From: Trypanosoma brucei
Lineage: Eukaryota
Length of the DNA stretch: 64,000 bases
Direction of reading: 5' to 3'
Assembly (NCBI GenBank): GCA_000002445.1
Contig: CP000071.1
Coordinates: forward strand, 1,184,001 to 1,248,000
Made by a program: the position numbers and the translations under genes. Position 1 is the first letter of the stretch. Each line of letters opens with the position of its first letter. The notes below the pieces were generated by a model, which was not told the origin of the DNA, did not search any database, and saw only the letters and a list, made by a program, of their open reading frames with translations. Shown here piece after piece: positions 10,933-35,867 of this stretch.

Positions 10933-11160
10933 TCACAAGCAAGCTATCCCCCATTTAAAAGCACCTCCCATCCAAACCATTCCTATCGCGCCTCCCGCCA
11001 GCGCCGTACCAAGGAAGGCAAAGGCACGTCCCACGGAGGAAGCAGAAACCGCCATCGTATGCTTCTTCCTGCAGTTGATGCCACAAAGTGTAATAGAAGG
11101 AGTAAGTGGGATGACAGTGCACGTATCAGTGGGCATGAGCCGTACGGTGATGCGATGCAT
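10933..11160 (-). pseudogene. Truncated 5' fragment of the endonuclease-G-like gene, marking the left boundary of the tandem array.
   Basis: The 75-aa ORF is identical over its first 62 aa to the N-terminus of the 506-aa EndoG-like proteins at 16841..18361 and 26459..27979. It then diverges (MVWMGGAFKWGIACL versus MVVERGGWFGVDKCHP). Nucleotide identity with the other units ends near 10974. Confidence 0.6.
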
Positions 11161-12131
11161 TTTACGTATCGCTATGAGGTCCTTCCGTCCACATGACGAA
11201 TACAGCTACAAATGATCTTGCACTACAGCGGGTGGTATTAACGATAAGGTTACATCAGCTTCAGCACACTCTGCTTCTGCTTTTAACCCTAGACTTATCT
11301 AATCCCTGCCGCCCATGCAGTTGCATAATTAAATAGAAGATAATAAGGGAGAATGAAAATGAATGAAGATGGGAAAATACGGTGAAGGAACACAAAGGGT
11401 ACTATAGCAGTATAGGAGCACGCCACAAGAAGATGTGCTCGGACAAGCGGATGGATCACCAACAAGATAGGGGACCTTCGGAGGGTTTCACAGTTGGAGT
11501 CAGCATGGACTCACCTCAAAGGAAGACAAATAAGGGAAAAGAATAGAAAAAATAAAATTACGTTCCCCTGTGGCACAACGACGGCAAGCGTCGGGGTACC
11601 TGAAGCTGTACAGGCGTGCTCGCTGTAGCGACCGCACAGTCTTGTATTGTGCACTGCTTCACTGTAACATGATAGTTCATACCCCAATATATGTTGCCTA
11701 CAACCTTGTCCCCTACACACTCAGATGACACCGCACCAGTGGCATGCGGAACCGTAGTGGTAGGAGGCGGCAACCCAGGAACCTCCAGCAGCTGAAAATA
11801 TAATTTTGATGGAGAGATCTCTAGATAGAGCCGGCGTCTATGTATAAACATGCCGGCTGCACTGAGGCCGGCGTTGGGTAACCCCAGAGCCGATGCCAAC
11901 AACAACAAAAAAAAGAAATAACGACCGATCAATAACGATAAGAATGATAATGGTGGAAATACATGTACATGTACGGGAGCACATGAATAACTAGTGAATA
12001 GCGAAAATAGCGATCAGTTGAGTTACTGAGACCTTTCCACCCTGCTCTCACTCAGTTACTGCAAGCACGTGTTGCATGGGAGTGGAAGGACAGTAAGACA
12101 TTGCGCATGTTTGTGTGATAGTCTAGGAAAT

Positions 12132-12225
12132 TCACTGCTCGACCCTTTCTTTGTTGCCGTAGGCAGATGCGTAATCTTGCTCATCCTCATCCAGTGTACT
12201 CACGAATTTCGGACGAGCGGGTGCA
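12132..12225 (-). pseudogene. A 31-codon 3' remnant of the 752-aa NHL glycoprotein (FLA1BP-like) gene. The rest of the gene is deleted from the first array unit.
   Basis: Positions 12132-12225 match 19333-19427, which is the C-terminal end of the 752-aa CDS (...ARPKFVSTLDEDEQDYASAYGNKERVEQ*). Homology breaks abruptly at 12225 (agcatt versus gactac). Confidence 0.55.
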
Positions 12226-12772
12226 GCATTGCACCGTTCACATCACAGCCTGCCATAGCGATTGTTTCTTTTTTTCTCAGGCTATTTGCAAATTGTAGTT
12301 ACCATTGGAGTAATGCGCCAGATAAGGCGGTTTATAAATAATGTCGAGCTGCTCAGTGTCATGCGAACACGTACCTCAGCATTACGGAGGAAAATGGTCT
12401 AGTGTTGTTACCGTGTTTAAATAATTTCGGTCACTTAACAATCTGGTTGTTAGCGTATTGTTTCTTAGGTTTTCTCGCTAGCCGTTCGATTCAAACAATA
12501 CACAACCATTTGTATGCGTGGCCAATCTTAATTATTCAAAAACATGGGAAAACGGAACGTCTGCCAAATTAATGATGTAATGCCCTTAATTGCTATACAT
12601 GCGTGTTACATACAACAACAGCGTTCTTTCAACATGTGTGGTATAGTGCAAACGAAATACAATGCTAAACCCCCACACAGAAGTCCTGTGATGATATCTT
12701 TCTGTTTCTCCACGTAGATGGTGAGCACCATCACGTATTCTGGTGTGACATCAATGCCACTCGTAGCGGTAG

Positions 12773-14413
12773 TCACTCGAACGCCGGCAACCGTACAAAG
12801 GCGAACTTTACGTTGTACGGGCTTACCACCATCAGGAAAAGAAGTACGATAGCTACCGCACCAAGAAGTGCGGAGGAAACGATACCACCGAGACACACAC
12901 CGTCGCATCTAGATAGACGTGAGTCATCTCCGCATACGGACTCAGCTAAGGTAATGTGCTGGCAATCATCCACACACTTCACCATGCAGAGCGGCAACAG
13001 GTGACTCCACTGCTCTTGCTGCGACACTTCTTCAAGGAACATCCGGGTCCACGTCCATGGAGACGAGAACAGCCGCTTCTGCGCACGTCCCTTGCTCATG
13101 CCGGGGGGGCCCCTGTAGTTGGTAATAAGGATGGTATTCTCAAGGTTCATCATTGCAGTAAGGTTTGTCCACGTCGAAACATTTGTACCACCAGGCACGT
13201 TAATCTCACCGGGTGGAAGGAACACAGCATAGAAGTCCTCTGTACGAAAGGCTACCTCCACATCTTTTATAATCCATGAATACAGGGCGTGCATGAGCCG
13301 ATCATTTCCCATTGGGAACGAGGAAGCGCGAAAGGCGGCCACAGCTGTGGATCTCGGAGGTGACCCGGGCGTTGGCGTGGGAGTCACCGGCGGTAGTGGT
13401 GTTGGTGAATAGCATTTCTCACGGACGGCGTACACAGCTGTTTCGGTTATGGCATAATATTCACATCCATTCACCTTAACCAGTGAGACAATCGGCCCAT
13501 GCATCCACTCCATCACCTTCTTAGGGCACAACAGACCGGTTTCAGAGGAATTCAATTCAAGGGACATGATATGGCTCTCGCCGTTAGGTTCACCGTAATA
13601 ATAGAGCTCATTCTCGTCCTCAGTTAACATCAAGGCATCGACATAATCGAGACAACTCATATTGGCGATGTCCCAGCTCTTCTTGTTACCATCCGAATCG
13701 CTGAGGCTATTCAGGTCCACCGCTGCAATCCACGAGGTCTCCTTCACGACATACATGAAATTCCGCTTCTTGCTTATTTGCATCACACCAGGTTGAAAAC
13801 CTCCAACAAGTTTCGCCGTTACATTGTTGGACACACTTATCTGCGAGTACATAATCCTTGAATTTCCAGTATCCGAAATAAATAAAACCGGTGCCCCGTC
13901 TTGTTCATGATAAATAATACTACTCGGTTTATCAACTTCATTGGCCGCAAACTTCGTCACCATTCCATCAGCATCTATCCGCTTCATGCAATCATTATCC
14001 CTGTCCGCCACGTAAATATCATTGTTTACACCAACAACAGAGGTGGGATGATTAAAACGAGCAACCTCTAAAGGACCAACTTCGTCACCACGCTTTGCAA
14101 GATTTCCCGCAACGGTATATATGCCAGTTTTGTTTACGAGTCGCACGGTGGATCCACCACCTCCAACATCACATAAAAGTAAAGGAAAGCTTTTGTTCTT
14201 AAAGAACCCACCCACCGCCTTGAATAAGCGACCAGTACCGTTTATGCCATCCGCCTGCCCACTACTACAGTTGATACAACTGTTGAAGAGGTTCACAATC
14301 ACCTTGGTGCCCACGGTTTGGTCTCCTATAACGGGACTCACAAAACCCAGCAGCAGCAACAACGCTGCCACGAGTGCGGCCAATGCTTCCCGTGATTCAG
14401 TCCTGCCACCCAT
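12773..14413 (-). CDS. FLA1: Flagellum adhesion glycoprotein FLA1-like. 546 aa, with a signal peptide, an NHL-repeat beta-propeller ectodomain, many N-glycosylation sequons and a C-terminal TM helix. It lacks the 44-aa Pro-rich insert.
   Basis: The ATG was verified. The N-terminus MGGRTESREALAALVAALLLLLGFVSPVIG is signal-peptide-like. An NHL-type repeat is present (GIYTVAG...FNHPTSVVGVNNDIYVADRDNDCMKRID). The C-terminal TM is LLGAVAIVLLFLMVV. The 546-aa length, against the 590-aa paralogue, matches the published FLA1/FLA2 relationship. Confidence 0.75.
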   Translation of the reverse strand: MGGRTESREALAALVAALLLLLGFVSPVIGDQTVGTKVIVNLFNSCINCSSGQADGINGTGRLFKAVGGFFKNKSFPLLLCDVGGGGSTVRLVNKTGIYTVAGNLAKRGDEVGPLEVARFNHPTSVVGVNNDIYVADRDNDCMKRIDADGMVTKFAANEVDKPSSIIYHEQDGAPVLFISDTGNSRIMYSQISVSNNVTAKLVGGFQPGVMQISKKRNFMYVVKETSWIAAVDLNSLSDSDGNKKSWDIANMSCLDYVDALMLTEDENELYYYGEPNGESHIMSLELNSSETGLLCPKKVMEWMHGPIVSLVKVNGCEYYAITETAVYAVREKCYSPTPLPPVTPTPTPGSPPRSTAVAAFRASSFPMGNDRLMHALYSWIIKDVEVAFRTEDFYAVFLPPGEINVPGGTNVSTWTNLTAMMNLENTILITNYRGPPGMSKGRAQKRLFSSPWTWTRMFLEEVSQQEQWSHLLPLCMVKCVDDCQHITLAESVCGDDSRLSRCDGVCLGGIVSSALLGAVAIVLLFLMVVSPYNVKFAFVRLPAFE

Positions 14414-14451
14414 TCCTGTTGCTCCACACTGTGATTCTATCAGTCAGTCGC

Positions 14452-14490
14452 TATATGTATATATATATATATATGTATATACCCCACGGA
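14452..14490. repeat. (TA)n microsatellite with TG interruptions, in the FLA1 upstream region.
   Basis: The sequence reads tatatgtatatatatatatatatgtatata. It recurs at 24070-24100 and, as a pure (TA)n, at 33689-33716. Confidence 0.8.
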
Positions 14491-14599
14491 TCTACCGTTG
14501 GGAAACAAACCTCAACCACAAAAGCGACCTATTAGCTCTGCTCAGTGAACTCACAACTCCCTTTAGTTGTCTTGTGATGATATTATTATTCACACATCA

Positions 14600-14705
14600 G
14601 AACAAAGAAAACAAAGGAAGCCAAAGGAAGACAAAAGAGGAGAAAGGAATCCGACACGTGAGAGAGAACAACAGTGGACGCAGACAGACGAAAGAAAAAC
14701 ACAGA
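14600..14705 (-). promoter_or_regulatory. Polypyrimidine tract on the coding (minus) strand. It is the likely trans-splicing signal for FLA1 and the polyadenylation guide for the upstream zinc-finger gene.
   Basis: The plus strand is almost pure purine (acaaaggaagccaaaggaagacaaaagaggagaaaggaa...gaaagaaaaacacag), so the minus strand is a CT-rich tract about 190-300 nt upstream of the ATG at 14413. Copies lie at 24218-24323 and 33833-33938. Confidence 0.4.
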
Positions 14706-14783
14706 TGCATTGAAGCCACGCATTTAGGGTTGGGGAAACATATTCAGAGTTTGAAAGCCACGCTTCACTCCTTCGTATTTTGA

Positions 14784-15512
14784 CTAAGGCAACGCAGACC
14801 CGCCACCCGCCGGTCCCTTACCAATGTGGAGGAAATTGCAGTACTTCCCACGCCTGCAGCCCTCCCGAGTGAGGAAGAAAGTACATACCCTGCCATATGT
14901 TGCATTTCCCACGTGGCGCTCATTTCGACGGATCTGTGAGAGGCGGTAATCCTCAGAAGAGGATGCTGCACTGGTTGGGAGCAGTGGGGAACCTGCAGGG
15001 GATGGCAGTGGTGTAGCCATGTTCTGTTGATGAGCAGAGTTTCGACCACCCGCCACAACCCCTATTCCCTGTGACGGAGGGGCATGTGGTAGTGATGAGG
15101 ATGCGGTACCCCCCGCACATCCGTAAGGCGGTGTGGTGCCAGTAGCGCTGTTGTGTGGCAGGGGGCACTCCCTCATACGTCCTTCGGCATTAGCGTCCCG
15201 CGGACGACCTGAGGCTACTTGGAGTTCTATAGAGAAAGGGTCGGGGCAGTTAACGCCACAGTGTCCGTTTATGGCTGAATAGAATTCCATAAGTGCCTGA
15301 TGCGCTACGTGTGTCGGTGGGCGCAGCGAGAGGACGTTAGGTGTAGCAACGGACAACACTTTCTCCGATGATAGCGGTTGGTACGGCGAGTTCTGAATCT
15401 TGCGCACGAGGCACACTGCCGATGGGGCTGCATGCTCCACAATGTAGTTCACCATCGCTCTCGTTGTGAGTTGCTGGGTAGTTGACGTTGCTTCCGCAGA
15501 CGAGATGGTCAT
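14784..15512 (-). CDS. CCCH-type zinc-finger protein of 242 aa with a single C-x8-C-x5-C-x3-H finger at the C-terminus. Unit copy 1.
   Basis: The ATG was verified. The C-terminal motif CTFFLTREGCRRGKYCNFLH gives C-x8-C-x5-C-x3-H. The upstream region is Ser/Pro/Ala-rich and low-complexity. Confidence 0.65.
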   Translation of the reverse strand: MTISSAEATSTTQQLTTRAMVNYIVEHAAPSAVCLVRKIQNSPYQPLSSEKVLSVATPNVLSLRPPTHVAHQALMEFYSAINGHCGVNCPDPFSIELQVASGRPRDANAEGRMRECPLPHNSATGTTPPYGCAGGTASSSLPHAPPSQGIGVVAGGRNSAHQQNMATPLPSPAGSPLLPTSAASSSEDYRLSQIRRNERHVGNATYGRVCTFFLTREGCRRGKYCNFLHIGKGPAGGGSALP

Positions 15513-15746
15513 TCAACTGCACGCGTATATACCCCCCACCCGTGCGGTTTTACAATGTTTCCGGGAGAAGAAATGAGGCTACCTTACCTTGGGATATTCA
15601 CCCACACAAACGGAAATTATCAACGATCCTACCTGCTTCGGGGTGGTTCTTCACATGCATCTGAACAAACCAACAACCAGTAGCAGCACAGCAACAATGT
15701 ACAACAAGTATACAATCACACCATCCCACTTACATAGATTCTCCTT

Positions 15747-16445
15747 TTAGTCTTCCTCATCCTCTTTCCCTTCGTAACACACCTCACTTTCCTCCACTTC
15801 CTCATCGCTACTTTCCGATTCAACACCCGAAAAACATTGCCGCCGCAGATTCAAAACCCCACGCGAGTAGTACGTTGCCATTCTTTCCACAGGAAGACTT
15901 AGGAAGTCCTGCACGCATGACGCTCTGTGCTCTTGCATGAATGCTATCACGGCCCACAGTTCAGCCATAGCCCAGATGTCACTACGGAGGGGACTCTTCT
16001 TTTCTGCTTCACCATCCTTTGCAGCGATCGCCACGTGGTCAGTCTTGCTATTATTGTTAGCATGTGACATAGCCCCAGCAAGACACATGTGCTCACCAAC
16101 GAACTTCACTAGCCTATAGTTATGATTGGGATGCACCGTAACGTTTCCAGTGTTGGGACATGGTAGCAATAGGATAGGGGTCTCCTCATCCGTTATGTCC
16201 TGCAGCAACACACCCGCTTGTCCAAGTAGTTGCCGAAGGTTCAGGGACGGTGCGGCAGAGGGCACCTGAGTTACCCTCCCATTAATGCGGATAACAAAGT
16301 GCGCCTCCTCATCGGTTCCACACTCCTTAGATCGGCCGCGCTTGCGAGTTCCCTTAACCACTTCTTGACCCGCCAATCGTGTCATGACCTCTACCAATAC
16401 CTTTAGTGATTGATCAACGGGGGAGAAAATCTTAGATAAGCACAT
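15747..16445 (-). CDS. Hypothetical protein of about 232 aa with an acidic Ser/Glu/Asp C-terminal tail. Unit copy 1.
   Basis: The track ORF starts at TTG (16460). The first ATG gives MCLSKIFSPVDQ... The tail reads ESESSDEEVEESEVCYEGKEDEED. It is conserved in all three units. Confidence 0.55.
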   Translation of the reverse strand: MCLSKIFSPVDQSLKVLVEVMTRLAGQEVVKGTRKRGRSKECGTDEEAHFVIRINGRVTQVPSAAPSLNLRQLLGQAGVLLQDITDEETPILLLPCPNTGNVTVHPNHNYRLVKFVGEHMCLAGAMSHANNNSKTDHVAIAAKDGEAEKKSPLRSDIWAMAELWAVIAFMQEHRASCVQDFLSLPVERMATYYSRGVLNLRRQCFSGVESESSDEEVEESEVCYEGKEDEED

Positions 16446-16840
16446 ATGGATGGCGCGCAACTGAAGTTGGGATGGCGGCTCGACTGATGCAACGTGACGA
16501 CCAATCTTATCCTAGTCAGAGTGACGTGGTGTAGGTATGGTGAGGCCACTGCAGTCGGAACGCTGAGAGTGTTCAGCACTAAAAACATTTCACGGGAGGA
16601 TCCCTAAACTGACACAGCAACTGTTCATATGTCCACTACACGATGAACCAGGGATACCATCGCGGAGGTGTAATTTAATCCACAGACACTGCGGGAGGTA
16701 TTGCTGGGGTTAGATCTCGAATAGTGCTACAGGCACTCAACAATTGCCGGACACAAAAGACTAATGGACACACACACCGCTTTCTTTGCCTAAAGTGCAG
16801 CCCTGGAAAGTTACAAATAAGGAATGACAGGTACCGTGAG

Positions 16841-18361
16841 TTAACCGGTGTCGTTGGTCGACACAGCCATTAGTTCCCTCAGGCGCTCTCTATATTCCTG
16901 TGCTACAACCCCATCCAGAGCAACTGTTATTCCGGCTGTGTTGCCACACTTCTGCTGCTGTTCTGCAAGCAGGATGCTGTAAACACTCTGCAATTCAGGA
17001 AGAGAACCCGCCGCCCGTAGACGCGCCACGTCTCGGTACGAGCGAAACATTCCTGCGGTACGTGCTTCACACACCACGCGTCTGCAAATATTTGGCAGAG
17101 CATCCAGTTCCCGCCCCCAGAACCGCGCGTCTGACCCAGCAGCGGCCACATTCCGAAAGAACTCCAAACCCGTCAGTCGCTCGATTTCTACCACAGGCAC
17201 CTGGTAAGCTGTGAGGGGCCGCTCCACGGCAATCGGTTCGTTCGGCATTAGGAAGGCAGCAGCTTCATGTGCCCCGTCCGCTCGCTCACCTAATATAACT
17301 TTGAAGAGGTGTGTGGGGACCGCAACGTCGCGCTTGCCCACAAGCTCATAGCAGACAATCTTCCGCAAGTGCACTGCTGCCTTGTCATTTCCACAGTGGC
17401 AGTGTTCTCCAGAAGCCAACACTCCGCTACTCACAGGTTTTACTGGAGACGGACATTGCGATGGTTCCGCCCACCGCCACGTGCGCACATCACCATCCAC
17501 GAGCCGCGGGTGGAAGACAGGTCCCGTCACTACCCACAATCCCCTCTCATAATACCGCCGCAACTTCCGTGTGAGGTTTTCCAACCGCAGCCAGTCGACA
17601 GCATTCATTGTCATGTCCTGTGGTACAGTGTTCGCATTCATGTTAAAGGTCTGAGCCAACTCAACAGTAGAGCTCTTGTGAAACTGTGCGGCAGCAAGGT
17701 GACCTCGGCTGAGGCCTCGTGAGTGCTGTCCCCTGCCACCCCCAATATAGTCACCGGGCTGCACGCGGAACAACTGAGGCACCGTCATGTCCGCAAAGAA
17801 CCTCATTCCATCTCGCTGGGCTTCCGCTGCGGAAGCGTTTACTAAGTCGTTATCAGCCGTGACCACTGAATCAGCAGCAGTGGTCCTGCCGGGGATGTAC
17901 TCCAACACCCAATTAGGGATACGACGCTCATAATTCAGACTAGAAACAAAGCCTTTGTAGTAGCGCAGGTGATCGTCGGACGGAAGCCCCTTGCTTGTAA
18001 GTCTTAGCACGAAAGGAGTAGTTTCCCCACCATCGTCGTTACACCTCTCCTTGGGGTATGCGGGCTGTGGGCATTGCACGTGTAACACCTCCGGACTTGT
18101 GCGCTCAGTCATCTGTTGATACGGAACAGGCGATGGATGGCATTTGTCCACACCAAACCAACCACCACGCTCCACAACCATTCCTATCGCGCCTCCCGCC
18201 AGCGCCGTACCAAGGAAGGCAAAGGCACGTCCCACGGAGGAAGCAGAAACCGCCATCGTATGCTTCTTCCTGCAGTTGATGCCACAAAGTGTAATAGAAG
18301 GAGTAAGTGGGATGACAGTGCACGTATCAGTGGGCATGAGCCGTACGGTGATGCGATGCAT
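16841..18361 (-). CDS. EndoG: Endonuclease G-like DNA/RNA non-specific nuclease (beta-beta-alpha-Me family) with an N-terminal hydrophobic anchor/presequence. Unit copy 1.
   Basis: The active-site block LSRGHLAAAQFH corresponds to the metazoan FDRGHLAAAANH. MNANTVPQDMTMNAVDWLRLENLTRKL corresponds to the EndoG region LSNVAPQVPHLNQNAWNNLEKYSRSL. VVTGPVFHP corresponds to VCTGPLFLP. VAVPTHLFKVILGE...FLMPNEPI corresponds to IAVPTHFFKVLILE...YVMPNAPV. The N-terminal hydrophobic stretch is FAFLGTALAGGAIGMVV. Confidence 0.85.
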   Translation of the reverse strand: MHRITVRLMPTDTCTVIPLTPSITLCGINCRKKHTMAVSASSVGRAFAFLGTALAGGAIGMVVERGGWFGVDKCHPSPVPYQQMTERTSPEVLHVQCPQPAYPKERCNDDGGETTPFVLRLTSKGLPSDDHLRYYKGFVSSLNYERRIPNWVLEYIPGRTTAADSVVTADNDLVNASAAEAQRDGMRFFADMTVPQLFRVQPGDYIGGGRGQHSRGLSRGHLAAAQFHKSSTVELAQTFNMNANTVPQDMTMNAVDWLRLENLTRKLRRYYERGLWVVTGPVFHPRLVDGDVRTWRWAEPSQCPSPVKPVSSGVLASGEHCHCGNDKAAVHLRKIVCYELVGKRDVAVPTHLFKVILGERADGAHEAAAFLMPNEPIAVERPLTAYQVPVVEIERLTGLEFFRNVAAAGSDARFWGRELDALPNICRRVVCEARTAGMFRSYRDVARLRAAGSLPELQSVYSILLAEQQQKCGNTAGITVALDGVVAQEYRERLRELMAVSTNDTG

Positions 18362-19332: not shown

Positions 19333-21585
19333 TCACTGCTCGACCCTTTCTTTGTTGCCGTAGGCAGATGCGTAATCTTGCTCATCCTCATCCAGTGTAC
19401 TCACGAATTTCGGACGAGCGGGTGCGACTACGGCGGCAAGGCGTCTGCGTTTCGATGTGAACACGACAGCTAACACGATGAGGACGGCTACGATAAGTGC
19501 ACACACTACCGCGATTATGATTAGGCACACGCGACCGCACTTTGGCGCCTTCTCTGTGGTGGGTCTGACGGTATCGTTGTTCAGGTGGTCGTTCAAGTCT
19601 TGCCAGTCAATCTCACCGACGCATTCCGACACATCGAACGTATAGTTTCCAGGAATGAATACTTCGTACAGACTCATCTCAACGTAGGGTGGCTGGTAAA
19701 AAAGCGATACCGTGCGGTTCGTTATCGTGGACTGGCATACTCCAGTTACATTGCTATCAAGTGCCGTGGCAATGGTGGTTCGGCTATGGTCACCAACCTC
19801 TTCCCTACGTGCCATGCTTCTCCCGGTGCTACGTTCTTCACATTTCTTTATTTGATTCATCACCTCGTCGTGTATGTACCAGCGTACTTCCTGTTCCTCA
19901 TCCGGAGTCAGTGATGAGAAGTTGAACGGGGGATTGGAGAAGGTTACATCGACGTGAGTGTCCGAGCTCCGCAAGTATTTGATGAATGAGTGGGCAGTCT
20001 CAGTGAGGTTCGCATCTGACAGCAAGTCGTGGGTCACGGTGTTGTTGAACGAGGCTGGCATCAGTAGCTTCACTGTTGTGATATTTTCAGCGTCACTGCT
20101 CTCAGCCTTAAGGGGCATGTCCGCGTAGATGAGCGTGAAATTGAGTACCTCACCCGCCTCCTTTGCGAGCTTCCGACGGAGAGCATCAAGACTCAGGCGA
20201 TTGCAATATGGGACCATTGTGCTGTCCATGTACACCTGTTCGTCAGTAAGGTTGTAGTACTCATCCGCAGCCTCCTTTGTGTGTTCATAGTTACTCTCGT
20301 GCAAGGCCTGTTCGGTTTTCTCGTCATCAAAGTCCGGCTGTTGCACACCGGCGGTGAAATTCGTTAGCCATGTTGTGGAGTCCACATGTACGGAAGAAGA
20401 GGCAACAATACTTTCGGTGGTGCCGAGCGCAGTGTTGATGTCCTCAGTGAGGTTCCCCACAATCCACTCCATGATGTCTTTATCAGGGTATCCAACTGGT
20501 AACGGGCGCCCGGGGAAGAGACCCTGCACGTACACTGGTGGAAGTGTCACAGAACGCAGGACACTTTTCTTTTCCGATGTAACATACATTTCGTACTCCG
20601 TCACCACGAGCAATCGGGTTATCTCACAAAGAAGCGTGTCATCTCCCTCAGTATTGGGAAGACACGAGTTCGTGCTTCCTCCGGCGAATCGTTTCGTCGT
20701 AAGTTTATTACCGTCGGTCGAAACGCGGTGTAACTCATTTTGTGTTGCCGCGAGTAGATCACCAGACCGTGTGCTGGTAATGTCCACATATTCACCATCC
20801 ACCTCTGCGATCTTGTGGCCCTGCAGGTCGAACCAGCAGATGGTGCCCTGCTTCGCGGGGCCGCGAGCAACAACAAAGATGCCCTGCTGCGTGGCGGCAA
20901 TGCCGATGGGACCATAGATACTGCAGTTTGCACTCAGAGCCACGTGGCTGTGACATGCGATTGGGTCACCGTCGCTTCCCACTTCACACGTCCATACAGT
21001 ATTTGTGTTTTGCTCTGTCAGATACAGGTGGTTCCCGTACAAAGCTACGCCTGTCAGCGAGCCATTGCGGACTACGTCATGAGAGAAGACACCGCTGTCC
21101 TTGAAATACTTCACCTCACCCATACTCTCAACAAAGTAAACAAATGTGGAGCCACCAACTGTCCACTGCACGCAGGCGCGCGGTTTGTCAACTTTGACAC
21201 TACGCGACCCGCTTTTCTGATCCTCGTCTGTCTCCCATGCCGTGATTGTAGTGGTCTCACGGTTCTTGCGCGAGAAGGCACGGAAGCGGTCAACTGTCCC
21301 CAAAAGGATCTCGTCACTATTCCTGCCTCTGCACATAGCGTGGGGTGACGATAATTCCGACATGCCAGGGAACCCGTCCTTATCACCAATATGACCGTAC
21401 TTGCCAGCGACGGTGGTCACATGGCGCTTCAGTTCAATGGGAGCGGCTCCACTTCTCACTACAATCGTTGCGACGGTGGCCACGAGCAAAAGCATCTGGG
21501 ATACGTAACCTAAGTGCACGGTTCCTACTACTTCCCTCACATTCATTGTTTCCACCTCACAGTTGGTTTGTTTCCACAACGGCAT
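19333..21585 (-). CDS. FLA1BP: FLA1-binding-protein-like NHL-repeat type-I membrane glycoprotein. It is about 750 aa from the first ATG; the track ORF is 752 aa from a TTG. Unit copy 1.
   Basis: An N-terminal hydrophobic signal or anchor is present (LLLVATVATIVV). NHL-like repeats are present (TVAGKYGHIGDKDGFPGMSELSSPHAM...). There are more than 15 NxS/T sequons and a C-terminal TM CLIIIAVVCALIVAVLIVLAVVF followed by a basic cytoplasmic tail. Length and position, adjacent to FLA2 and EndoG, match FLA1BP as I recall it. Confidence 0.7.
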   Translation of the reverse strand: MPLWKQTNCEVETMNVREVVGTVHLGYVSQMLLLVATVATIVVRSGAAPIELKRHVTTVAGKYGHIGDKDGFPGMSELSSPHAMCRGRNSDEILLGTVDRFRAFSRKNRETTTITAWETDEDQKSGSRSVKVDKPRACVQWTVGGSTFVYFVESMGEVKYFKDSGVFSHDVVRNGSLTGVALYGNHLYLTEQNTNTVWTCEVGSDGDPIACHSHVALSANCSIYGPIGIAATQQGIFVVARGPAKQGTICWFDLQGHKIAEVDGEYVDITSTRSGDLLAATQNELHRVSTDGNKLTTKRFAGGSTNSCLPNTEGDDTLLCEITRLLVVTEYEMYVTSEKKSVLRSVTLPPVYVQGLFPGRPLPVGYPDKDIMEWIVGNLTEDINTALGTTESIVASSSVHVDSTTWLTNFTAGVQQPDFDDEKTEQALHESNYEHTKEAADEYYNLTDEQVYMDSTMVPYCNRLSLDALRRKLAKEAGEVLNFTLIYADMPLKAESSDAENITTVKLLMPASFNNTVTHDLLSDANLTETAHSFIKYLRSSDTHVDVTFSNPPFNFSSLTPDEEQEVRWYIHDEVMNQIKKCEERSTGRSMARREEVGDHSRTTIATALDSNVTGVCQSTITNRTVSLFYQPPYVEMSLYEVFIPGNYTFDVSECVGEIDWQDLNDHLNNDTVRPTTEKAPKCGRVCLIIIAVVCALIVAVLIVLAVVFTSKRRRLAAVVAPARPKFVSTLDEDEQDYASAYGNKERVEQ

Positions 21586-27979: not shown

Positions 27980-28950
27980 TTTACGTATCGCTATGAGGTC
28001 CTTCCGTCCACATGACGAATACAGCTACAAATGATCTTGCACTACAGCGGGTGGTATTAACGATAAGGTTACATCAGCTTCAGCACACTTTGCTTCTGCT
28101 TTTAACCCTAGACTTATCTAATCCCTGCCGCCCACGCAGTTGCATAATTAAATAGAAGATAATAAGGGAGAATGAAAATGAATGAAGATGGGAAAATACG
28201 GTGAAGGAACACAAAGGGCACTATAGCAGTATAGGAGCACGCCACAAGAAGATGTGCTCGGACAAGCGGATGGATCACCAACAAGATAGGGGACCTTCGG
28301 AGGGTTTCACAGTTGGAGTCAGCATGGACTCACCTCAAAGGAAGACAAATAAGGGAAAAGAATAGAAAAAATAAAATTACGTTCCCCTGTGGCACAACGA
28401 CGGCAAGCGTCGGGGTACCTGAAGCTGTACAGGCGTGCTCGCTGTAGCGACCGCGCAGTCTTGTATTGTGCACTGCTTCACTGTAACATGATAGTTCATA
28501 CCCCAATATATGTTGCCTACAACCTTGTCCCCTACACACTCAGATGACACCGCACCAGTGGCATGCGGAACCGTAGTGGTAGGAGGCGGCAACCCAGGAA
28601 CCTCCAGCAGCTGAAAATATAATTTTGATGGAGAGATCTCTAGATAGAGCCGGCGTCTATGTATAAACATGCCGGCTGCACTGAGGCCGGCGTAGGGTAA
28701 CCCCAGAGCCGATGCCAACAACAACAAAAAAAAGAAATAACGACCGATCAATAACGATAAGAATGATAATGGTGGAAATACATGTACATGTACGGGAGCA
28801 CATGAATAACTAGTGAATAGCGAAAATAGCGATCAGTTGAGTTACTGAGACCTTTCCACCCTGCTCTCACTCAGTTACTGCAAGCACGTGTTGCATGGGA
28901 GTGGAAGGACAGTAAGACATTGCGCATGTTTGTGTGATAGTCTAGGAAAT

Positions 28951-31203: not shown

Positions 31204-31875
31204 GCGCAATCGAGAAATTACAGTGGGGTCACTAGCCTCTGCCTTACCTAACGCGAAAGGATCCAGTGTTCTGTTAACTTCCTCTAATTACCTGCCCTCA
31301 GAGAGAGGCCGGCTACAATTCCTTATATGGCACCCCAGAAGCGCGGCACAAGAGTCGCGGGCAACGAAGACGCAAAAAAGAAGGAAAGGGATAGACAAAG
31401 AATAGGTACGCGAAGAGACTTTTGGTCATTGGAACGCCAAAACTCGTATGTAATGTATACAGGTGACTGTTCACGCAGAACCTGCAAATGTTGCTTCCAA
31501 CTCTACGGTCTCTTCTAAAACGATGCAGCTGCAAAATCAAAAGTGCCTTTTAAAACATATTGCGTAGCAAATTTTTTTTTCTTTGGGGGGGGGAGGTAGT
31601 GGAGGGAAAACATTTTAAATGGGTATACCTATTCTATCACTTACGTAATCACACGCTTTTTCTTACTGTCATAAATACGTATTTTCTGCACAAAAAGATT
31701 TGTTTCCTCACCCAAAATGAGCAAGGTGTAGCCATCACATGACGACCAGAAACGCACACCCACCCAACTCTAACCTCATGCGAAGTAGTCGCAGAGGTTG
31801 CCTCTCACTATTCCCCACCGGCTGTCACCTCCATTACGTATCCATGAGTGACTCCGAAGTCACTTGCAGCTCCAA

Positions 31876-33648
31876 CTACTCCAGCGCCGGCAGTCGCACA
31901 AAAGTAGATCTTGCATTCGGTGGACTTGCTATGAGCAACCACAGCAGCATGATGGCAAGAAGGCCCAAGAGCACTGAGGAGGCGATTCCTGCAGCACGCA
32001 GGTCCTCATGCACCTGGAACTGAAGCTCGTCTACACACAGAGATTCATTGAAGGAAATGTACTGACAATCATCCACACACTTCACCATGCAGAATGGTGA
32101 TAGGTGATCCCACTCCTCTTGTCGTACCAATTCATCAAGAAACTTCCGTGTCCAGTTCCATGGAGACGAGAACAACCGCTTCTGTAGTTCTTGCTTGCTC
32201 CTACCAGGAGGCCCTTGGTAGTTGGTAATAAGGATGTTCTTGTCGAAGTTCTCTAGAGCTGTCAAGTTTGTCCACGTCGAAACATTTGTACCACCAGGCA
32301 CGTCATTGTAACCTGGGGGGAGGAAAACAGCAAAAAAGTCATCTGTGCCGAAAGCGATCTCAACATCCCTCATAATCCACGAATACAGAGCATGCATAAG
32401 TTTTACATCATCAATTGGGAACGAAGAAGCGCGAAAGGCGGCAACAGCTGTGGGTCTCGGAGGTGAAGGGGGATCCGGATTGGGAGTAATCGGCGGCGGC
32501 GGCGGCGGCGGTGGTGGTGGTGGCGGTGGCGGTGGCGGCTGCACTGATGGTGATGGTGACGGCGATGCTGATGGGCTGGGAGAAGGTGATGGCGGCACCG
32601 AAGGCGTGGGAGGGGGCGTTGGTGGAGGCGTTGGCGTCGGTGTATAGCCTACATCACGAATGGCATACACGGCCGTTTCTGTTGTAGCATAATACTCTTT
32701 GTCATTCACCCTCAACAATGAGACAATCCGATCATAGTCCCATTTCAACATTGACTGCGCACACCATTGGGATGCTGGAGATGGGCGTTCCACCTCTAGT
32801 GACATGATGTACCCCTCTCCATTGGGCTCACCGTAATAATATAGTTTATCCTCTGCTTGAGTCAGCATCAGAGCACTTTTGTAGTGCAGACACGTCACAT
32901 CACCTATATCCTTACTTTTTCCAATATCAGACTCCCCAGTTTTGCTCAAATTAACCGCTGCAATCCATGAGGTGTTTTTTACGACATACATCATGTTCTT
33001 TTCTTTGCTTATTTGCATCACACCAGGTTGGAAGCCAGCGACTAGTGTAGTTACCACTGTGTTATTAGCATCCAGTGGCACATAAAGGATCTGCGAATTG
33101 CCTGTGTCGGAAATGAATAGATTCTGAGTCCCGTTCAATGTGAATGGGAGAATATCCTTCGGTTTGTTAAGGTCTTGTGGTCCATATCTGGTTACATTGC
33201 CCTCAGCATCTATTCGCCTAATACAGTTGTTATCCCTGTCTGCCACGTAAATATCATCGTTGACGCTTACAACTGAGGTGGGATTGTTGAATAGTGCATC
33301 TCCCTTGGGGCCGTCTTTATTACCACGTTGCGTCAGACTGCCTGCAATTGTATATATGCCAGTTTTGTTTACGAGTCGCACGGTGGATCCACCACCTCCA
33401 ACATCACATAAAAGTAAAGGAAAGCTTTTGTTCTTAAAGAACCCACCCACCGCCTTGAATAAGCGACCAGTACCGTTTATGCCATCCGCCTGCCCACTAC
33501 TACAGTTGATACAACTGTTGAAGAGGTTCACAATCACCTTGGTGCCCACGGTTTGGTCTCCTATAACGGGACTCACAAAACCCAGCAGCAGCAACAACGC
33601 TGCCACGAGTGCGGCCAATGCTTCCCGTGATTCAGTCCTGCCACCCAT
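31876..33648 (-). CDS. FLA2: FLA2-like 590-aa glycoprotein, unit copy 3. It is mosaic: residues about 47-95 are of FLA1 type.
   Basis: The body of the protein, including the Pro-rich insert, is identical to 22258..24030. The segment NSCINCSSGQADGINGTGRLFKAVGGFFKNKSFPLLLCDVGGGGSTVRLV is identical to the 546-aa paralogue and differs from copy 2 (NSCTTCTVGQADGESAKGKLFKASGGFFQKKRFPLLLCDIEGGGSTVRLV). Confidence 0.75.
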   Translation of the reverse strand: MGGRTESREALAALVAALLLLLGFVSPVIGDQTVGTKVIVNLFNSCINCSSGQADGINGTGRLFKAVGGFFKNKSFPLLLCDVGGGGSTVRLVNKTGIYTIAGSLTQRGNKDGPKGDALFNNPTSVVSVNDDIYVADRDNNCIRRIDAEGNVTRYGPQDLNKPKDILPFTLNGTQNLFISDTGNSQILYVPLDANNTVVTTLVAGFQPGVMQISKEKNMMYVVKNTSWIAAVNLSKTGESDIGKSKDIGDVTCLHYKSALMLTQAEDKLYYYGEPNGEGYIMSLEVERPSPASQWCAQSMLKWDYDRIVSLLRVNDKEYYATTETAVYAIRDVGYTPTPTPPPTPPPTPSVPPSPSPSPSASPSPSPSVQPPPPPPPPPPPPPPPPITPNPDPPSPPRPTAVAAFRASSFPIDDVKLMHALYSWIMRDVEIAFGTDDFFAVFLPPGYNDVPGGTNVSTWTNLTALENFDKNILITNYQGPPGRSKQELQKRLFSSPWNWTRKFLDELVRQEEWDHLSPFCMVKCVDDCQYISFNESLCVDELQFQVHEDLRAAGIASSVLLGLLAIMLLWLLIASPPNARSTFVRLPALE

Positions 33649-34016: not shown

Positions 34017-34745
34017 CTAAGGCAACGCAGACCCGCCACCCGCCGGTCCCTTACCAATGTGGAGGAAATTGCAGTACTTCCCACGCCTGCAGCCCTCCCG
34101 AGTGAGGAAGAAAGTACATACCCTGCCATATGTTGCATTTCCCACGTGGCGCTCATTTCGACGGATCTGTGAGAGGCGGTAATCCTCAGAAGAGGATGCT
34201 GCACTGGTTGGGAGCAGTGGGGAACCTGCAGGGGATGGCAGTGGTGTAGCCATGTTCTGTTGATGAGCAGAGTTTCGACCACCCGCCACAACCCCTATTC
34301 CCTGTGACGGAGGGGCATGTGGTAGTGATGAGGATGCGGTACCCCCCGCACATCCGTAAGGCGGTGTGGTGCCAGTAGCGCTGTTGTGTGGCAGGGGGCA
34401 CTCCCTCATACGTCCTTCGGCATTAGCGTCCCGCGGACGACCTGAGGCTACTTGGAGTTCTATAGAGAAGGGGTCGGGGCAGTTAACGCCACAGTGTCCG
34501 TTTATGGCTGAATAGAATTCCATAAGTGCCTGATGCGCTACGTGTGTCGGTGGGCGCAGCGAGAGGACGTTAGGTGTAGCAACGGACAACACTTTCTCCG
34601 ATGATAGCGGTTGGTACGGCGAGTTCTGAATCTTGCGCACGAGGCACACTGCCGATGGGGCTGCATGCTCCACAATGTAGTTCACCATCGCTCTCGTTGT
34701 GAGTTGCTGGGTAGTTGACGTTGCTTCCGCAGACGAGATGGTCAT
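34017..34745 (-). CDS. CCCH zinc-finger protein, unit copy 3. Identical.
   Basis: The protein is identical to copies 1 and 2. Confidence 0.65.
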   Translation of the reverse strand: MTISSAEATSTTQQLTTRAMVNYIVEHAAPSAVCLVRKIQNSPYQPLSSEKVLSVATPNVLSLRPPTHVAHQALMEFYSAINGHCGVNCPDPFSIELQVASGRPRDANAEGRMRECPLPHNSATGTTPPYGCAGGTASSSLPHAPPSQGIGVVAGGRNSAHQQNMATPLPSPAGSPLLPTSAASSSEDYRLSQIRRNERHVGNATYGRVCTFFLTREGCRRGKYCNFLHIGKGPAGGGSALP

Positions 34746-34979
34746 TCAACTGCACGCGTATATACCCCCCACCCGTGCGGTTTTACAATGTTTCCGGGAG
34801 AAGAAATGAGGCTACCTTACCTTGGGATATTCACCCACACAAACGGAAATTATCAACGATCCTACCTGCTTCGGGGTGGTTCTTCACATGCATCTGAACA
34901 AACCAACAACCAGTAGCAGCACAGCAACAATGTACAACAAGTATACAATCACACCATCCCTCTTACATAGATTCTCCTT

Positions 34980-35675
34980 TTAGTCTTCCTCATCCTCTTT
35001 CCCTTCGTAACACACCTCACTTTCCTCCACTTCCTCATCGCTACTTTCCAATTCAACACCCTTTATGCAGTGCCTCATCATTGCTGCAGTTGCTTTTCCT
35101 TTGTAAATTTCGACTTCCTCTGGTTTTAGCATAAGGAAATCTCGAGCATACGATATTTTGTTGCTTTGTAGGAATACCATTAAGGAACCCAAAGTACTGT
35201 CGGCCAGTTTTTTGCTTTGAAAGACACGTTTCTTGTGCAGTTTGTTACCCTCAGCAGTAAATGTTATGGCGTCTATCTCATGGTCGTTAGCAGGGAAAAA
35301 ATCTCCGGCAGGGCACACGTGCTCACCAACGAACTTCACTAGCCTATAGTTATGATTGGGATGCACCGTAACGTTTCCAGTGTTGGGACATGGTAGCAAT
35401 AGGATAGGGGTCTCCTCATCCGTTATGTCCTGCAGCAACACACCCGCTTGTCCAAGTAGTTGCCGAAGGTTCAGGGACGGTGCGGCAGAGGGCACCTGAG
35501 TTACCCTCCCATTAATGCGGATAACAAAGTGCGCCTCCTCATCGGTTCCACACTCCTTAGATCGGCCGCGCTTGCGAGTTCCCTTAACCACTTCTTGACC
35601 CGCCAATCGTGTCATGACCTCTACCAATACCTTTAGTGATTGATCAACGGGGGAGAAAATCTTAGATAAGCACAT
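34980..35675 (-). CDS. Divergent, mosaic copy of the acidic-tailed small protein, at the right boundary of the array.
   Basis: The N-terminal 130 aa and the acidic tail are identical to copies 1 and 2. An internal segment of about 260 bp (35050-35310) is replaced (CPAGDFFPANDHEIDAITFTAEGNKLHKKRVF...). The ATG at 35675-35673 was verified, and the track start is a TTG. Confidence 0.5.
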   Translation of the reverse strand: MCLSKIFSPVDQSLKVLVEVMTRLAGQEVVKGTRKRGRSKECGTDEEAHFVIRINGRVTQVPSAAPSLNLRQLLGQAGVLLQDITDEETPILLLPCPNTGNVTVHPNHNYRLVKFVGEHVCPAGDFFPANDHEIDAITFTAEGNKLHKKRVFQSKKLADSTLGSLMVFLQSNKISYARDFLMLKPEEVEIYKGKATAAMMRHCIKGVELESSDEEVEESEVCYEGKEDEED

Positions 35676-35867
35676 ATGGATGGCGCGAAGCCGGTGTTGC
35701 AAGAGCTAGGCCATTGATAGGGATACACTTTCCCATCTTTATTGGGTTGACAAGACTCTATGCGGGTGATTTGCTTTGTTTGCTGGTATCTTACGTTAAC
35801 ATGCTGTAGATTGGCCTGCTAGCAGGCACAAAATGTGAGTCTTCCCTTTTGCATTTACCCTACTGCG

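What the first reader, a model, noticed from the sequence alone, without database searches (positions are those of the whole stretch)
10974..35690. A 24.7-kb tandem array of a 9,618-bp five-gene unit, recognisable as the FLA1/FLA2-FLA1BP-EndoG flagellum adhesion locus
ORF coordinates repeat with an exact 9,618-bp period (9,615 bp in the third unit) for five different genes, with 0-1 amino-acid differences between copies. This indicates very recent amplification or ongoing concerted evolution. The gene content is two NHL-propeller type-I glycoproteins of 590 and 752 aa, an EndoG-like nuclease, a CCCH zinc-finger protein and an acidic-tailed protein. The leading 546-aa paralogue differs from the 590-aa paralogue by exactly 44 residues of Pro-rich sequence. 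This content matches what I recall of the T. brucei chromosome-8 FLA locus: FLA1 of 546 aa, FLA2 of 590 aa with a 44-aa Pro-rich insert, FLA1BP of about 751 aa, and interspersed EndoG. It is therefore a described locus, but the window gives its complete architecture and boundaries.
Basis: partly seen in the sequence, partly recalled or inferred. Interest (0 to 1): 0.7.

Follow-up and report, generated by a model that had tools for sequence, protein, structure and literature searches.

The report
Trypanosoma brucei FLA flagellum-adhesion gene array
This is the already described flagellum-adhesion (FLA1/FLA2/FLA1BP) locus on chromosome 8 of the Trypanosoma brucei TREU927 reference genome: an ancestral five-gene block copied about 2.6 times head to tail and kept nearly identical by recombination. 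It is real and tidy but not new.

Summary
The repeat is real. Window 10975-35687 (- strand genes) is a 24.7-kb head-to-tail array with a 9,618-bp period (9,615/9,612 in the upstream unit). It holds a 4,942-nt exact repeat, and two units differ by 4 substitutions and 1 indel in 7,568 nt.

The proteins match T. b. brucei TREU927 chromosome 8 entries residue for residue, except the two 590-aa FLA2 proteins, which are placed by position and close relatives. Published gene IDs assign them as:
- Tb927.8.4010 FLA1
- .4060 FLA2 and .4110 FLA2-2 ("FLA3")
- .4050/.4100 FLA1BP
- .4040/.4090 EndoG (KP56)
- .4020/70/120 ZC3H24-26

Corrections:
- The "acidic-tailed" gene is annotated as RNA pol I factor CITFA-5a; its upstream copy has a divergent central block.
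- The two FLA2 copies differ at 15 residues (aa 47-84), all FLA1-like in .4110, so that gene is a mosaic.
- The FLA1 unit is truncated. Only 30 codons of FLA1BP and 62 of EndoG remain.

The five-gene order is single-copy in T. vivax and T. melophagium. Copies within a genome are about 25 times closer to each other than to copies in other subspecies, while both truncation junctions are shared with T. b. gambiense. This indicates concerted evolution.

Already known; low interest.

The parts
10975..35687 (-). Whole tandem array, 24.7 kb, about 2.6 units of 9,618 bp. All genes lie on the - strand within one directional gene cluster.
   Evidence: Self-BLAST; junction sequences; identity runs at offset 9,618.
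10975..11160 (-). Truncated EndoG pseudogene (junction J2). It keeps 62 authentic N-terminal codons, then 13 unrelated codons and a stop. This is the downstream end of the array, next to the ABC1-kinase gene (8394-10331).
   Evidence: The same junction is present in T. b. gambiense DAL972.
12132..12224 (-). FLA1BP relic (junction J1 at 12224). It consists of the last 30 codons plus the stop, identical in peptide to the full-length copies. The rest of FLA1BP is deleted in the FLA1 unit.
   Evidence: The same junction is present in DAL972.
12225..12772 (-). FLA1-specific 3' flank, presumed to be the 3' UTR. It cannot be aligned with the FLA2 3' flank (21592-22257 and 31210-31875).
   Evidence: No BLAST HSP; 20-47% column identity.
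12773..14413 (-). FLA1 (Tb927.8.4010), 546 aa. It has a signal peptide, an NHL region, a short Pro/Thr linker, a C-terminal TM segment and a 16-aa tail.
   Evidence: Exact match to XP_847232; hydropathy and sequons; Pfam NHL 17.6 bits.
14784..15512 (-). ZC3H24 (Tb927.8.4020), 242 aa, a CCCH zinc-finger protein. Identical copies are ZC3H25 at 24402-25130 and ZC3H26 at 34017-34745.
   Evidence: PMC4055773; PMC3985637.
15747..16445 (-). 232-aa protein with an acidic tail (Tb927.8.4030), annotated as CITFA subunit 5a. An identical copy lies at 25365-26063 (Tb927.8.4080).
   Evidence: No Pfam family.
16841..18361 (-). Endonuclease G / KP56 (Tb927.8.4040), 506 aa, Ala499. The second copy at 26459-27979 (Tb927.8.4090) has Val499.
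   Evidence: bioRxiv 10.1101/2024.04.22.590512.
19333..21585 (-). FLA1BP (Tb927.8.4050), 750 aa from the first ATG. An identical copy lies at 28951-31203 (Tb927.8.4100). It has an N-terminal hydrophobic segment, a six-bladed NHL-like beta-propeller (aa 55-357), an alpha/beta domain, a TM segment (aa 685-717) and a basic/acidic tail.
   Evidence: PMC3546053.
22258..24030 (-). FLA2 (Tb927.8.4060, FLA2-1), 590 aa. It has a 44-aa longer Pro-rich linker than FLA1.
   Evidence: It is 99.5% identical to the FLA2 of DAL972 and T. b. equiperdum.
31876..33648 (-). FLA2-2 / 'FLA3' (Tb927.8.4110), 590 aa, a mosaic gene. It is identical to FLA2-1 from the stop codon up to 33349-33397. Above 33398 (aa 1-84) it is identical to FLA1. 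The patch adds three N-glycosylation sequons.
34980..35675 (-). 231-aa variant of the acidic-tail protein (Tb927.8.4130). Its N-terminal part and acidic tail match 5a, but the central block 35062-35285 is strongly divergent.
   Evidence: The variant is conserved in DAL972 and T. b. equiperdum.

Best explanation
The region is the chromosome 8 flagellum-adhesion locus of Trypanosoma brucei brucei TREU927 (Tb927.8.4010-.4130).

Origin. An ancestral five-gene block runs, in the direction of transcription, CITFA5-like, then the CCCH protein ZC3H24, FLA, FLA1BP and EndoG. It is single-copy in T. vivax and T. melophagium. In T. brucei it has been copied head to tail to give 2.6 units inside one polycistronic, promoter-less transcription unit.

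Divergence of the FLA gene. The FLA gene split into FLA1 and FLA2.
- FLA1 is the procyclic form. It has a short linker and its own 3' flank.
- FLA2 is the bloodstream form. It has a linker 44 aa longer, rich in Pro, and a different 3' flank.
- The two are 64% identical, which is as divergent as FLA2 is from T. congolense FLA.

Homogenisation of the rest. Everything else in the unit is kept nearly identical between units (about 0.05% divergence) by gene conversion or unequal crossing-over. That covers about 7.6 kb, including the first 46 FLA codons, ZC3H24-26, CITFA-5a, EndoG and FLA1BP. The same process produced the FLA1-like patch in Tb927.8.4110.

Function, from the literature. [quoted passage not shown] FLA2 does this in bloodstream forms together with FLA2BP, encoded on chromosome 5.

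What is shown and what is inferred.
- Shown here: identity of the genes, periodicity, mosaic boundaries, truncation junctions, outgroup synteny, and the pattern of within-genome against between-genome divergence.
- Inferred: that copy number serves dosage, that the distinct 3' flanks cause stage-specific expression, and that selection keeps the FLA1/FLA2 and 5a/5b blocks from being homogenised.
For: Identity:
- Exact protein matches to TREU927 chromosome 8 entries AAZ13162-AAZ13185, in consecutive order.
- Gene IDs from PMC4827413, PMC3546053, PMC12831198, PMC4055773 and PMC3985637.
- The EndoG A/V difference matches bioRxiv 10.1101/2024.04.22.590512.

Repeat structure.

Ancestral single-copy block, same order and strand: T. 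vivax L002 and T. melophagium L003. PMC10675206 reports the conserved EndoG-FLA1BP-FLA1-zinc-finger cluster across trypanosomatids.

Concerted evolution, tested on a 2.9-kb segment:
- The two copies within a genome differ by 1 site (TREU927), 4 (DAL972) and 0 (T. b. equiperdum).
- Between genomes there are 25-30, 26-27 and 7-11 differences.
- 22 of 34 variable sites separate both TREU927 copies from all the others.
- Junctions J1 and J2 are shared by TREU927 and DAL972, so the array predates the split of the subspecies.

FLA1/FLA2 divergence.

Protein families:
- Pfam NHL scores 28.8 bits for FLA2, and PF01223 scores 161 bits for EndoG.
- EndoG has SRGH and NTVPQ motifs and matches EXOG/EndoG structures in the PDB.
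- ZC3H has an exact C-x8-C-x5-C-x3-H motif.
- The FLA1BP model contains a beta-propeller that matches NHL domains with TM-scores of 0.64-0.70.
Against: - The near-identity of units could be inflated by assembly. Consensus sequence may have been built from reads of all copies.
- The DAL972 and T. b. equiperdum assemblies each have a 100-N gap inside the array.
- DAL972 places FLA1 in the first unit, next to the 5b variant, whereas TREU927 places it last. The order and copy number in at least one assembly are therefore uncertain.
- The two 590-aa FLA2 sequences were not found by exact look-up in the protein collection. Their assignment to .4060 and .4110 rests on position and on 99.5% identity to DAL972 and T. 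b. equiperdum FLA2.
- The CITFA-5a name rests on one transferred annotation and a citation in PMC10287944. The primary papers could not be read.
- Dosage and 3'-UTR control were not tested here.
Confidence: 0.93

Rival explanations
1. The three units arose by very recent, independent amplification in each T. brucei lineage. On this view there was no old array homogenised by gene conversion.
For: Units are 99.93-100% identical within TREU927. Copies cluster by genome. Both facts are also expected from independent recent duplications.
Against: - The two idiosyncratic junctions are identical in TREU927 and DAL972. They are FLA1 3' flank joined to the last 30 FLA1BP codons, and EndoG truncated after codon 62 next to ABC1.
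- The 5a/5b pair and the FLA1/FLA2 pair are present in all three subspecies.
- FLA1 and FLA2 are as divergent as FLA2 is from T. congolense FLA, yet they sit inside flanks that are 99.9% identical.
Confidence: 0.07
2. Part of the architecture is an assembly artefact. This could affect the unit count, the position of FLA1 at the downstream end, and the near-perfect identity. Reads from a repeat with 1.25-1.5-kb near-identical joints can be threaded in more than one order or collapsed.
For: - DAL972 shows the alternative path 5b-ZC3H-FLA1-dFLA1BP-EndoG...FLA2-FLA1BP-dEndoG-ABC1 through the same repeat graph.
- In DAL972 the 1,525-nt joint between the 5a/5b block and FLA codon 46 differs by only 1 nt between units.
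- Both other assemblies have gaps in the array.
Against: - T. b. equiperdum is colinear with the window for 26.4 kb, running 5b-ZC3H-FLA2-FLA1BP-EndoG-5a-ZC3H-FLA2-FLA1BP.
- Units carry their own private SNPs and indels.
- An independent laboratory distinguished .4040 from .4090 by PCR and Sanger sequencing of an upstream SNP (bioRxiv 10.1101/2024.04.22.590512).
- The .4110 switch occurs within a 48-nt window, which is far shorter than a sequencing read.
Confidence: 0.2
3. The proteins are unrelated to the FLA system and the resemblance is a false recollection.
For: None was found. Pfam alone gives no family for FLA1BP or for the acidic-tail protein.
Against: Exact matches to the named TREU927 proteins and matching gene IDs in several papers.
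Confidence: 0.01

Closest known systems
T. brucei TREU927 chromosome 8 FLA locus, Tb927.8.4010-Tb927.8.4130 (FLA1, FLA2, 'FLA3'/FLA2-2, FLA1BP x2, EndoG/KP56 x2, ZC3H24-26, CITFA-5a/5b)
   Same: It is this locus. Proteins are identical residue for residue, in the same order, and from the 2.48-Mb chromosome record.
   Different: Nothing differs in sequence. The held literature does not spell out the array anatomy given here: the limits, the J1 and J2 relics, the .4110 mosaic breakpoints, and the 7.6-kb homogenised tract.
Single-copy GP72/FLA1 - FLA1BP - EndoG - zinc-finger cluster of T. cruzi, T. vivax, T. grayi, Leishmania and Crithidia (PMC10675206)
   Same: The genes have the same order and orientation. 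T. vivax and T. melophagium also have the CITFA5-like gene upstream.
   Different: It is single-copy there. In T. brucei it is triplicated, with FLA split into stage-specific FLA1 and FLA2 and the last unit truncated.
T. brucei tandem gene arrays with sequence mosaics and concerted evolution (Jackson 2007, PMC1855330; Jackson et al. 2010, PMC2854126), including the FLA2BP pair Tb927.5.4570/4580
   Same: Head-to-tail copies lie within a polycistron. Within-genome homogenisation, strain-specific mosaics and divergent patches are retained.
   Different: The repeated unit is a five-gene block of unrelated genes rather than one gene. This array is not mentioned in the main text of either paper.

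Membership tests
FLA1/GP72 flagellum-adhesion glycoproteins | Sequence identity or orthology to characterised FLA1/FLA2 | tested here: met
   The 546-aa protein equals XP_847232 and AAC47392. FLA2 has 59% identity to FLA1 and 40-60% to the T. congolense, T. vivax, T. rangeli and T. grayi flagellum-adhesion glycoproteins.
FLA1/GP72 flagellum-adhesion glycoproteins | Type I topology (signal peptide, large ectodomain with N-glycosylation sequons, one C-terminal TM segment, short tail) and an NHL repeat | tested here: met
   Hydrophobic segments at aa 7-32 and aa 504-535 (FLA1) or 550-578 (FLA2); 9-13 sequons. Pfam NHL scores 28.8 bits for FLA2 (cut-off 20) but only 17.6 bits for FLA1.
FLA1/GP72 flagellum-adhesion glycoproteins | Required for flagellum attachment; stage-specific expression (FLA1 procyclic, FLA2 bloodstream) | not testable with these tools
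   Literature only: PMC4827413, PMC12831198, PMC3546053.
FLA1BP (FLA-binding proteins) | Identity to Tb927.8.4050/4100, two identical 750-aa products | tested here: met
   Exact match to XP_847236/XP_847241. The two window copies have 0 differences. PMC3546053 describes two identical genes encoding 750 residues.
FLA1BP (FLA-binding proteins) | Extracellular NHL-repeat beta-propeller | tested here: inconclusive
   There is no Pfam NHL hit even at E<=10. An AlphaFold2 model (pLDDT 78.6; about 90 over aa 55-357) has a propeller whose PDB matches include the Mei-P26, Brat and NHL-2 NHL domains and teneurin (E about 1e-8 to 1e-10, TM-score normalised to the target 0.64-0.70). The fold is supported but the sequence signature is not detected.
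EndoG / DNA-RNA non-specific endonuclease (PF01223) | Family domain and catalytic beta-beta-alpha-metal motif | tested here: met
   PF01223 scores 161.4 bits against a cut-off of 23. SRGH lies at aa 218 and NTVPQ at aa 244. phmmer finds human EXOG and EndoG structures at 5e-28 to 1e-20, with SRGH aligned.
CCCH zinc-finger proteins (ZC3H24-26) | C-x8-C-x5-C-x3-H motif | tested here: met
   The exact motif CTFFLTREGCRRGKYCNFLH is present. Pfam zf-CCCH scores 18.2 bits, just under the 20.5 cut-off. Names come from PMC4055773 and PMC3985637.
CITFA subunit 5 (RNA polymerase I class I transcription factor A) | Identity to the purified CITFA-5 subunit | not testable with these tools
   The only evidence is a transferred annotation, 'class I transcription factor A, subunit 5a', on a T. 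equiperdum member of the same 90% cluster, plus the use of the name CITFA-5a in PMC10287944. The primary papers are not held, and there is no Pfam family.
Tandem gene array under concerted evolution | Head-to-tail periodic copies; paralogues within a genome closer than orthologues between genomes, despite a shared origin of the array | tested here: met
   Period of 9,618 bp and a 4,942-nt exact repeat. Within-genome differences of 0-4 against between-genome differences of 7-30 in 2.9 kb. Junctions shared with DAL972. Caveat: assemblies may collapse repeats.

The most novel reading that the evidence does not exclude
The FLA array may be structurally polymorphic within T. brucei, with recombination between units reshuffling the stage-specific adhesin genes. 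Two observations would fit this reading. FLA1 lies at opposite ends of the array in T. b. brucei TREU927 and T. b. gambiense DAL972. TREU927 also carries a strain-specific FLA1/FLA2 chimera (Tb927.8.4110, aa 47-84 from FLA1, three extra N-glycosylation sequons), which is absent from the DAL972 and T. b. equiperdum FLA2 copies. If real, this would make the array a natural source of new flagellum-adhesion variants.
Probability: 0.25. Interest if true: 0.3.

Novelty: already known. Interest (0 to 1): 0.12.

Why it matters
The locus encodes the proteins that hold the trypanosome flagellum to the cell body. These proteins are essential for morphogenesis and are switched between insect and bloodstream stages. 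The genes and their duplication are already in the reference annotation and in several papers, so the finding adds no new biology.

The second look adds a precise map. It also gives a practical warning: 7.6 kb of each unit is virtually identical. RNAi, tagging, CRISPR and short-read mapping therefore cannot separate the copies of FLA1BP, EndoG/KP56, ZC3H24-26 or CITFA-5a. The order and number of units in short-read or Sanger assemblies should not be trusted without long reads.

Tried and rejected
- Exact-product look-ups for FLA1, FLA1BP and EndoG in the contig index found nothing. The ZC3H look-up first returned only a 1.6-kb T. equiperdum contig. Loci were finally obtained through cluster representatives.
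- The T. b. equiperdum scaffold breaks at a 100-N gap in the second EndoG, and the sequence after the gap is unrelated to the window. It could therefore not show where FLA1 lies.
- The primary CITFA papers (PMC2099468, PMC3536272, PMC4702606) are not held. PMC3950698 and PMC6562600 do not give gene IDs for subunit 5. PMC10287944 has no supplements held.
- Jackson 2007 and the T. b. gambiense genome paper do not mention this array in their main text.
- The bacterial promoter/terminator scan is irrelevant to a trypanosome and was disregarded.
- The Rfam scan of the window found nothing. Tandem Repeats Finder found only short AT-rich microsatellites outside the array.
- The word-indexed protein search found only 3 FLA1BP relatives. 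The exhaustive HMMER search was needed to build an alignment for structure prediction.
- I considered whether the region downstream of the EndoG relic (10332-10974) matches the normal EndoG 3' flank. No similarity was detected.


Full report
OBSERVATION

- Long ORFs on the - strand recur at +9,618 bp: 14784->24402, 15747->25365, 16841->26459, 19333->28951 and 22258->31876. They recur at +9,615 bp into the third copy: 24402->34017 and 25365->34980.
- Self-BLAST gives a single 11.5-12 kb diagonal at offset 9,616-9,618, a second diagonal at about 19.2 kb, and an unexpected 1,255-bp match of 10971-12224 to 18171-19425 and 27789-29043.
- At offset 9,618 the longest perfectly identical run is 4,942 nt (18838-23779). 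About 15 nt is expected by chance in 64 kb.
- Segment by segment, 14275-21842 against 23892-31460 has 4 substitutions and one 1-nt indel in 7,568 nt. 21843-23779 against 31461-33397 has none in 1,937 nt.
- Homology stops at 10975 and 35687, within 3 nt of the coordinates given.

IDENTITY

An exact-sequence look-up places the window on the 2,481,190-bp chromosome 8 record of Trypanosoma brucei brucei TREU927.
- The 546-aa protein is XP_847232, 'flagellum-adhesion glycoprotein'. It is also AAC47392, the original FLA1 clone.
- The 750-aa protein is XP_847236/XP_847241.
- The 506-aa proteins are XP_847235/XP_847240, 'endonuclease G'.
- The 242-aa protein is 'zinc finger CCCH domain-containing protein 24'.
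- The 232-aa protein shares a cluster with a T. equiperdum entry named 'class I transcription factor A, subunit 5a'.
- Flanking genes match AAZ13162-13164 and AAZ13179-13185 in consecutive order.

Published gene IDs agree.
- FLA1 is Tb927.8.4010, FLA2 is .4060, 'FLA3' is .4110 and FLA1BP is .4050/.4100 (PMC4827413, Table 1).
- Tb927.8.4050/4100 are two identical genes encoding 750 residues (PMC3546053).
- FLA2-1 is Tb927.8.4060 (PMC12831198).
- ZC3H24/25/26 are .4020/.4070/.4120 (PMC4055773 and PMC3985637).
- Tb927.8.4040 (KP56) and .4090 differ by one nucleotide giving Ala->Val (bioRxiv 10.1101/2024.04.22.590512). That is exactly the single A499V difference in the window.

FAMILY CHECKS
- EndoG scores 161 bits to PF01223. 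It carries SRGH at aa 218 and NTVPQ at aa 244, and it hits human EXOG and EndoG structures at 5e-28 to 1e-20 with the SRGH aligned.
- ZC3H24 has an exact C-x8-C-x5-C-x3-H motif, although Pfam scores fall just under the cut-off.
- FLA2 passes the Pfam NHL cut-off (28.8 bits). FLA1 does not quite (17.6 bits).
- FLA1BP has no Pfam hit at all, even at E<=10. I aligned 17 relatives found by an exhaustive HMMER search and predicted the structure (pLDDT 78.6). Residues 55-357 form a confident all-beta propeller, followed by an alpha/beta domain and a TM helix at 685-717. Foldseek against the PDB returns NHL domains (Mei-P26, Brat, NHL-2; TM-score 0.64-0.70 normalised to the target; E about 1e-8) and teneurin among its best hits. 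The 'NHL propeller' label for FLA1BP is thus supported at fold level only.
- Hydropathy gives the expected N-terminal and C-terminal hydrophobic segments, with 9-14 N-glycosylation sequons.

(i) '0-1 differences between copies' is true for ZC3H (0, 0), the two 232-aa copies (0), FLA1BP (0) and EndoG (1). It is not true for the other two genes.
- The two 590-aa FLA2 genes differ at 15 residues, all within aa 47-84.
- The third acidic-tail copy (231 aa, Tb927.8.4130) has a strongly divergent central block at 35062-35285.

(ii) At every one of the 35 nucleotide positions where the two FLA2 genes differ (23780-23891), Tb927.8.4110 carries the FLA1 base.
- Below 33349 it is identical to FLA2-1, and above 33398 it is identical to FLA1.
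- The switch lies in a 48-nt window shared by all three genes.
- Tb927.8.4110 is therefore a FLA1/FLA2 mosaic that gains three sequons.
- The FLA2 copies of DAL972 and T. b. equiperdum have the FLA2-1 type of N-terminus. Among these genomes the patch is specific to TREU927.

(iii) FLA1 and FLA2 differ by one 44-residue Pro-rich block, as stated. They are also only 64% identical elsewhere.

(iv) The downstream unit is not intact.
- After FLA1 comes a unique 548-bp 3' flank (12225-12772).
- Next are the last 30 codons of FLA1BP (junction J1 at 12224), the normal FLA1BP-EndoG intergenic region, and only 62 codons of EndoG.
- Unrelated sequence and a stop follow (junction J2 at 10975), and then the ABC1-kinase gene.

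(v) The TTG and GTG starts from the bacterial ORF caller inflate the lengths. From the first ATG, FLA1BP is 750 aa and the acidic-tail proteins are 232 and 231 aa. Both match the database entries.

HISTORY

In T. vivax (L002) and T. melophagium (L003) the same five genes occur once, in the same order and orientation: CITFA5-like, ZC3H24, FLA, FLA1BP, EndoG. PMC10675206 reports the EndoG-FLA1BP-FLA1-zinc-finger cluster across trypanosomatids. The amplification is therefore derived in the T. brucei lineage. T. congolense has its own pair of FLA genes, 88% identical to each other.

To separate 'recent amplification' from 'concerted evolution', I compared a 2.9-kb segment (FLA1BP codon 151 to the start of EndoG). 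This segment is present twice in each of TREU927, T. b. gambiense DAL972 and T. b. equiperdum.
- The two copies within a genome differ by 1, 4 and 0 sites respectively.
- Copies from different genomes differ by 25-30 (TREU927-DAL972), 26-27 (TREU927-T. b. equiperdum) and 7-11 (DAL972-T. b. equiperdum).
- 22 of 34 variable sites separate both TREU927 copies from all the others.
- The idiosyncratic junctions J1 and J2 are nevertheless identical in TREU927 and DAL972, so the array is older than the subspecies.
- FLA1 and FLA2 are as divergent from each other (64%) as FLA2 is from T. congolense FLA (64%), yet they sit within flanks that are 99.9% identical.

This pattern indicates ongoing homogenisation by gene conversion or unequal crossing-over over about 7.6 kb of each unit, including the first 46 codons of FLA. 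The FLA body with its 3' flank, and the 5a/5b central block, escape it. That behaviour is known for T. brucei tandem arrays (PMC1855330, PMC2854126).

HOW IT WORKS

[quoted passage not shown] FLA2, together with FLA2BP from chromosome 5, does this in bloodstream forms. FLA2 can replace FLA1 (PMC4827413, PMC12831198).

From the sequence:
- All array genes lie on one strand within a long run of same-strand genes, consistent with polycistronic transcription.
- The 5' flanks of FLA1 and FLA2 are identical, while the 3' flanks are unalignable.

I infer, without having tested it, that the different 3' UTRs carry the stage specificity. I also infer that the duplicated 'passenger' genes simply gain dosage.

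CAVEAT ON ARCHITECTURE

The DAL972 assembly has this order: 5b-ZC3H-FLA1-dFLA1BP-EndoG(1-105)-[100 N]-FLA1BP(151-750)-EndoG-5a-ZC3H-FLA2-FLA1BP-dEndoG-ABC1. FLA1 is in the first unit there, not the last.
- T. b. equiperdum is colinear with the window for 26.4 kb (FLA2 first) but breaks at a gap before the third unit.
- In DAL972 the 1,525-nt joint between the 5a/5b block and FLA codon 46 differs by one nucleotide between units. The two orders are alternative paths through the same repeat graph.
- I cannot tell whether the difference is biological or an assembly choice.
- 'Complete architecture' therefore holds for this assembly only.

VERDICT

This is a real, well-defined tandem array and a correct identification of a locus that is already annotated and studied. 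The extra anatomy consists of the truncation relics, the Tb927.8.4110 mosaic, the 5a/5b block, and the quantified concerted evolution. It is useful housekeeping and a new instance of a known phenomenon. Novelty: already known. Interest: low.

Noticed in passing
window 33350-33648 (Tb927.8.4110) compared with 14115-14413 and 23732-24030: Tb927.8.4110 is a FLA1/FLA2 mosaic. Its first 84 codons are identical to FLA1 and the rest is identical to FLA2-1, with the switch inside a 48-nt shared window. The patch adds three N-glycosylation sequons. It is absent from the FLA2 copies of DAL972 and T. b. equiperdum.
   Followed up: yes
L005/L006 (T. b. gambiense DAL972, FN554971.1 994664-1025755) compared with window 7168-44749: DAL972 places FLA1 in the first unit, next to the 5b variant, and FLA2-FLA1BP next to the truncated EndoG. 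This is the opposite of TREU927. A 100-N gap must hide at least one more unit. The near-identical 1.25-1.5-kb joints make an assembly-path artefact as likely as a real rearrangement.
   Followed up: partly
window 35062-35285 compared with 25447-25673 and 15829-16055: The upstream acidic-tail (CITFA-5-like) copy has a strongly divergent central block of about 225 nt. It is flanked by sequence almost identical to the other two copies (4 mismatches in 383 nt on one side, an identical acidic tail on the other). The variant is conserved in DAL972 and T. b. equiperdum, which suggests two maintained isoforms (5a and 5b).
   Followed up: partly
window 10975-12224: Two pseudogene relics lie downstream of FLA1. 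One is the last 30 codons of FLA1BP. The other is a 75-codon ORF made of 62 EndoG codons plus 13 unrelated ones. The relic carries its own private SNPs.
   Followed up: yes
window 48000-64000: GC content drops from about 50% to 30-40%, and long ORFs become sparse. There are short AT-rich microsatellites at 49511-49580 and 53668-53719. The only long ORFs are conserved hypothetical proteins (231 aa at 50854-51549; 627 aa at 59077-60960; no Pfam family). The nature of this AT-rich stretch was not examined.
   Followed up: no
L007 11072-15738 (T. b. equiperdum CM010679.1): The second FLA2 and the second FLA1BP copies are interrupted by frameshifts in this assembly and were not called as genes. I did not determine whether these are sequencing indel errors or real pseudogenes.
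   Followed up: no
L003 7278-8594 (T. melophagium JAJSEB010000020.1): A called 438-aa gene sits between the ZC3H24 and FLA orthologues. It has no counterpart in T. brucei or T. vivax.
   Followed up: no
P0026/P0027 and P0039/P0040 (T. congolense IL3000): T. congolense also has two FLA paralogues (88% identical to each other) and two FLA1BP-like proteins (862 and 711 aa). This points to an independent expansion of the same gene pair.
   Followed up: no
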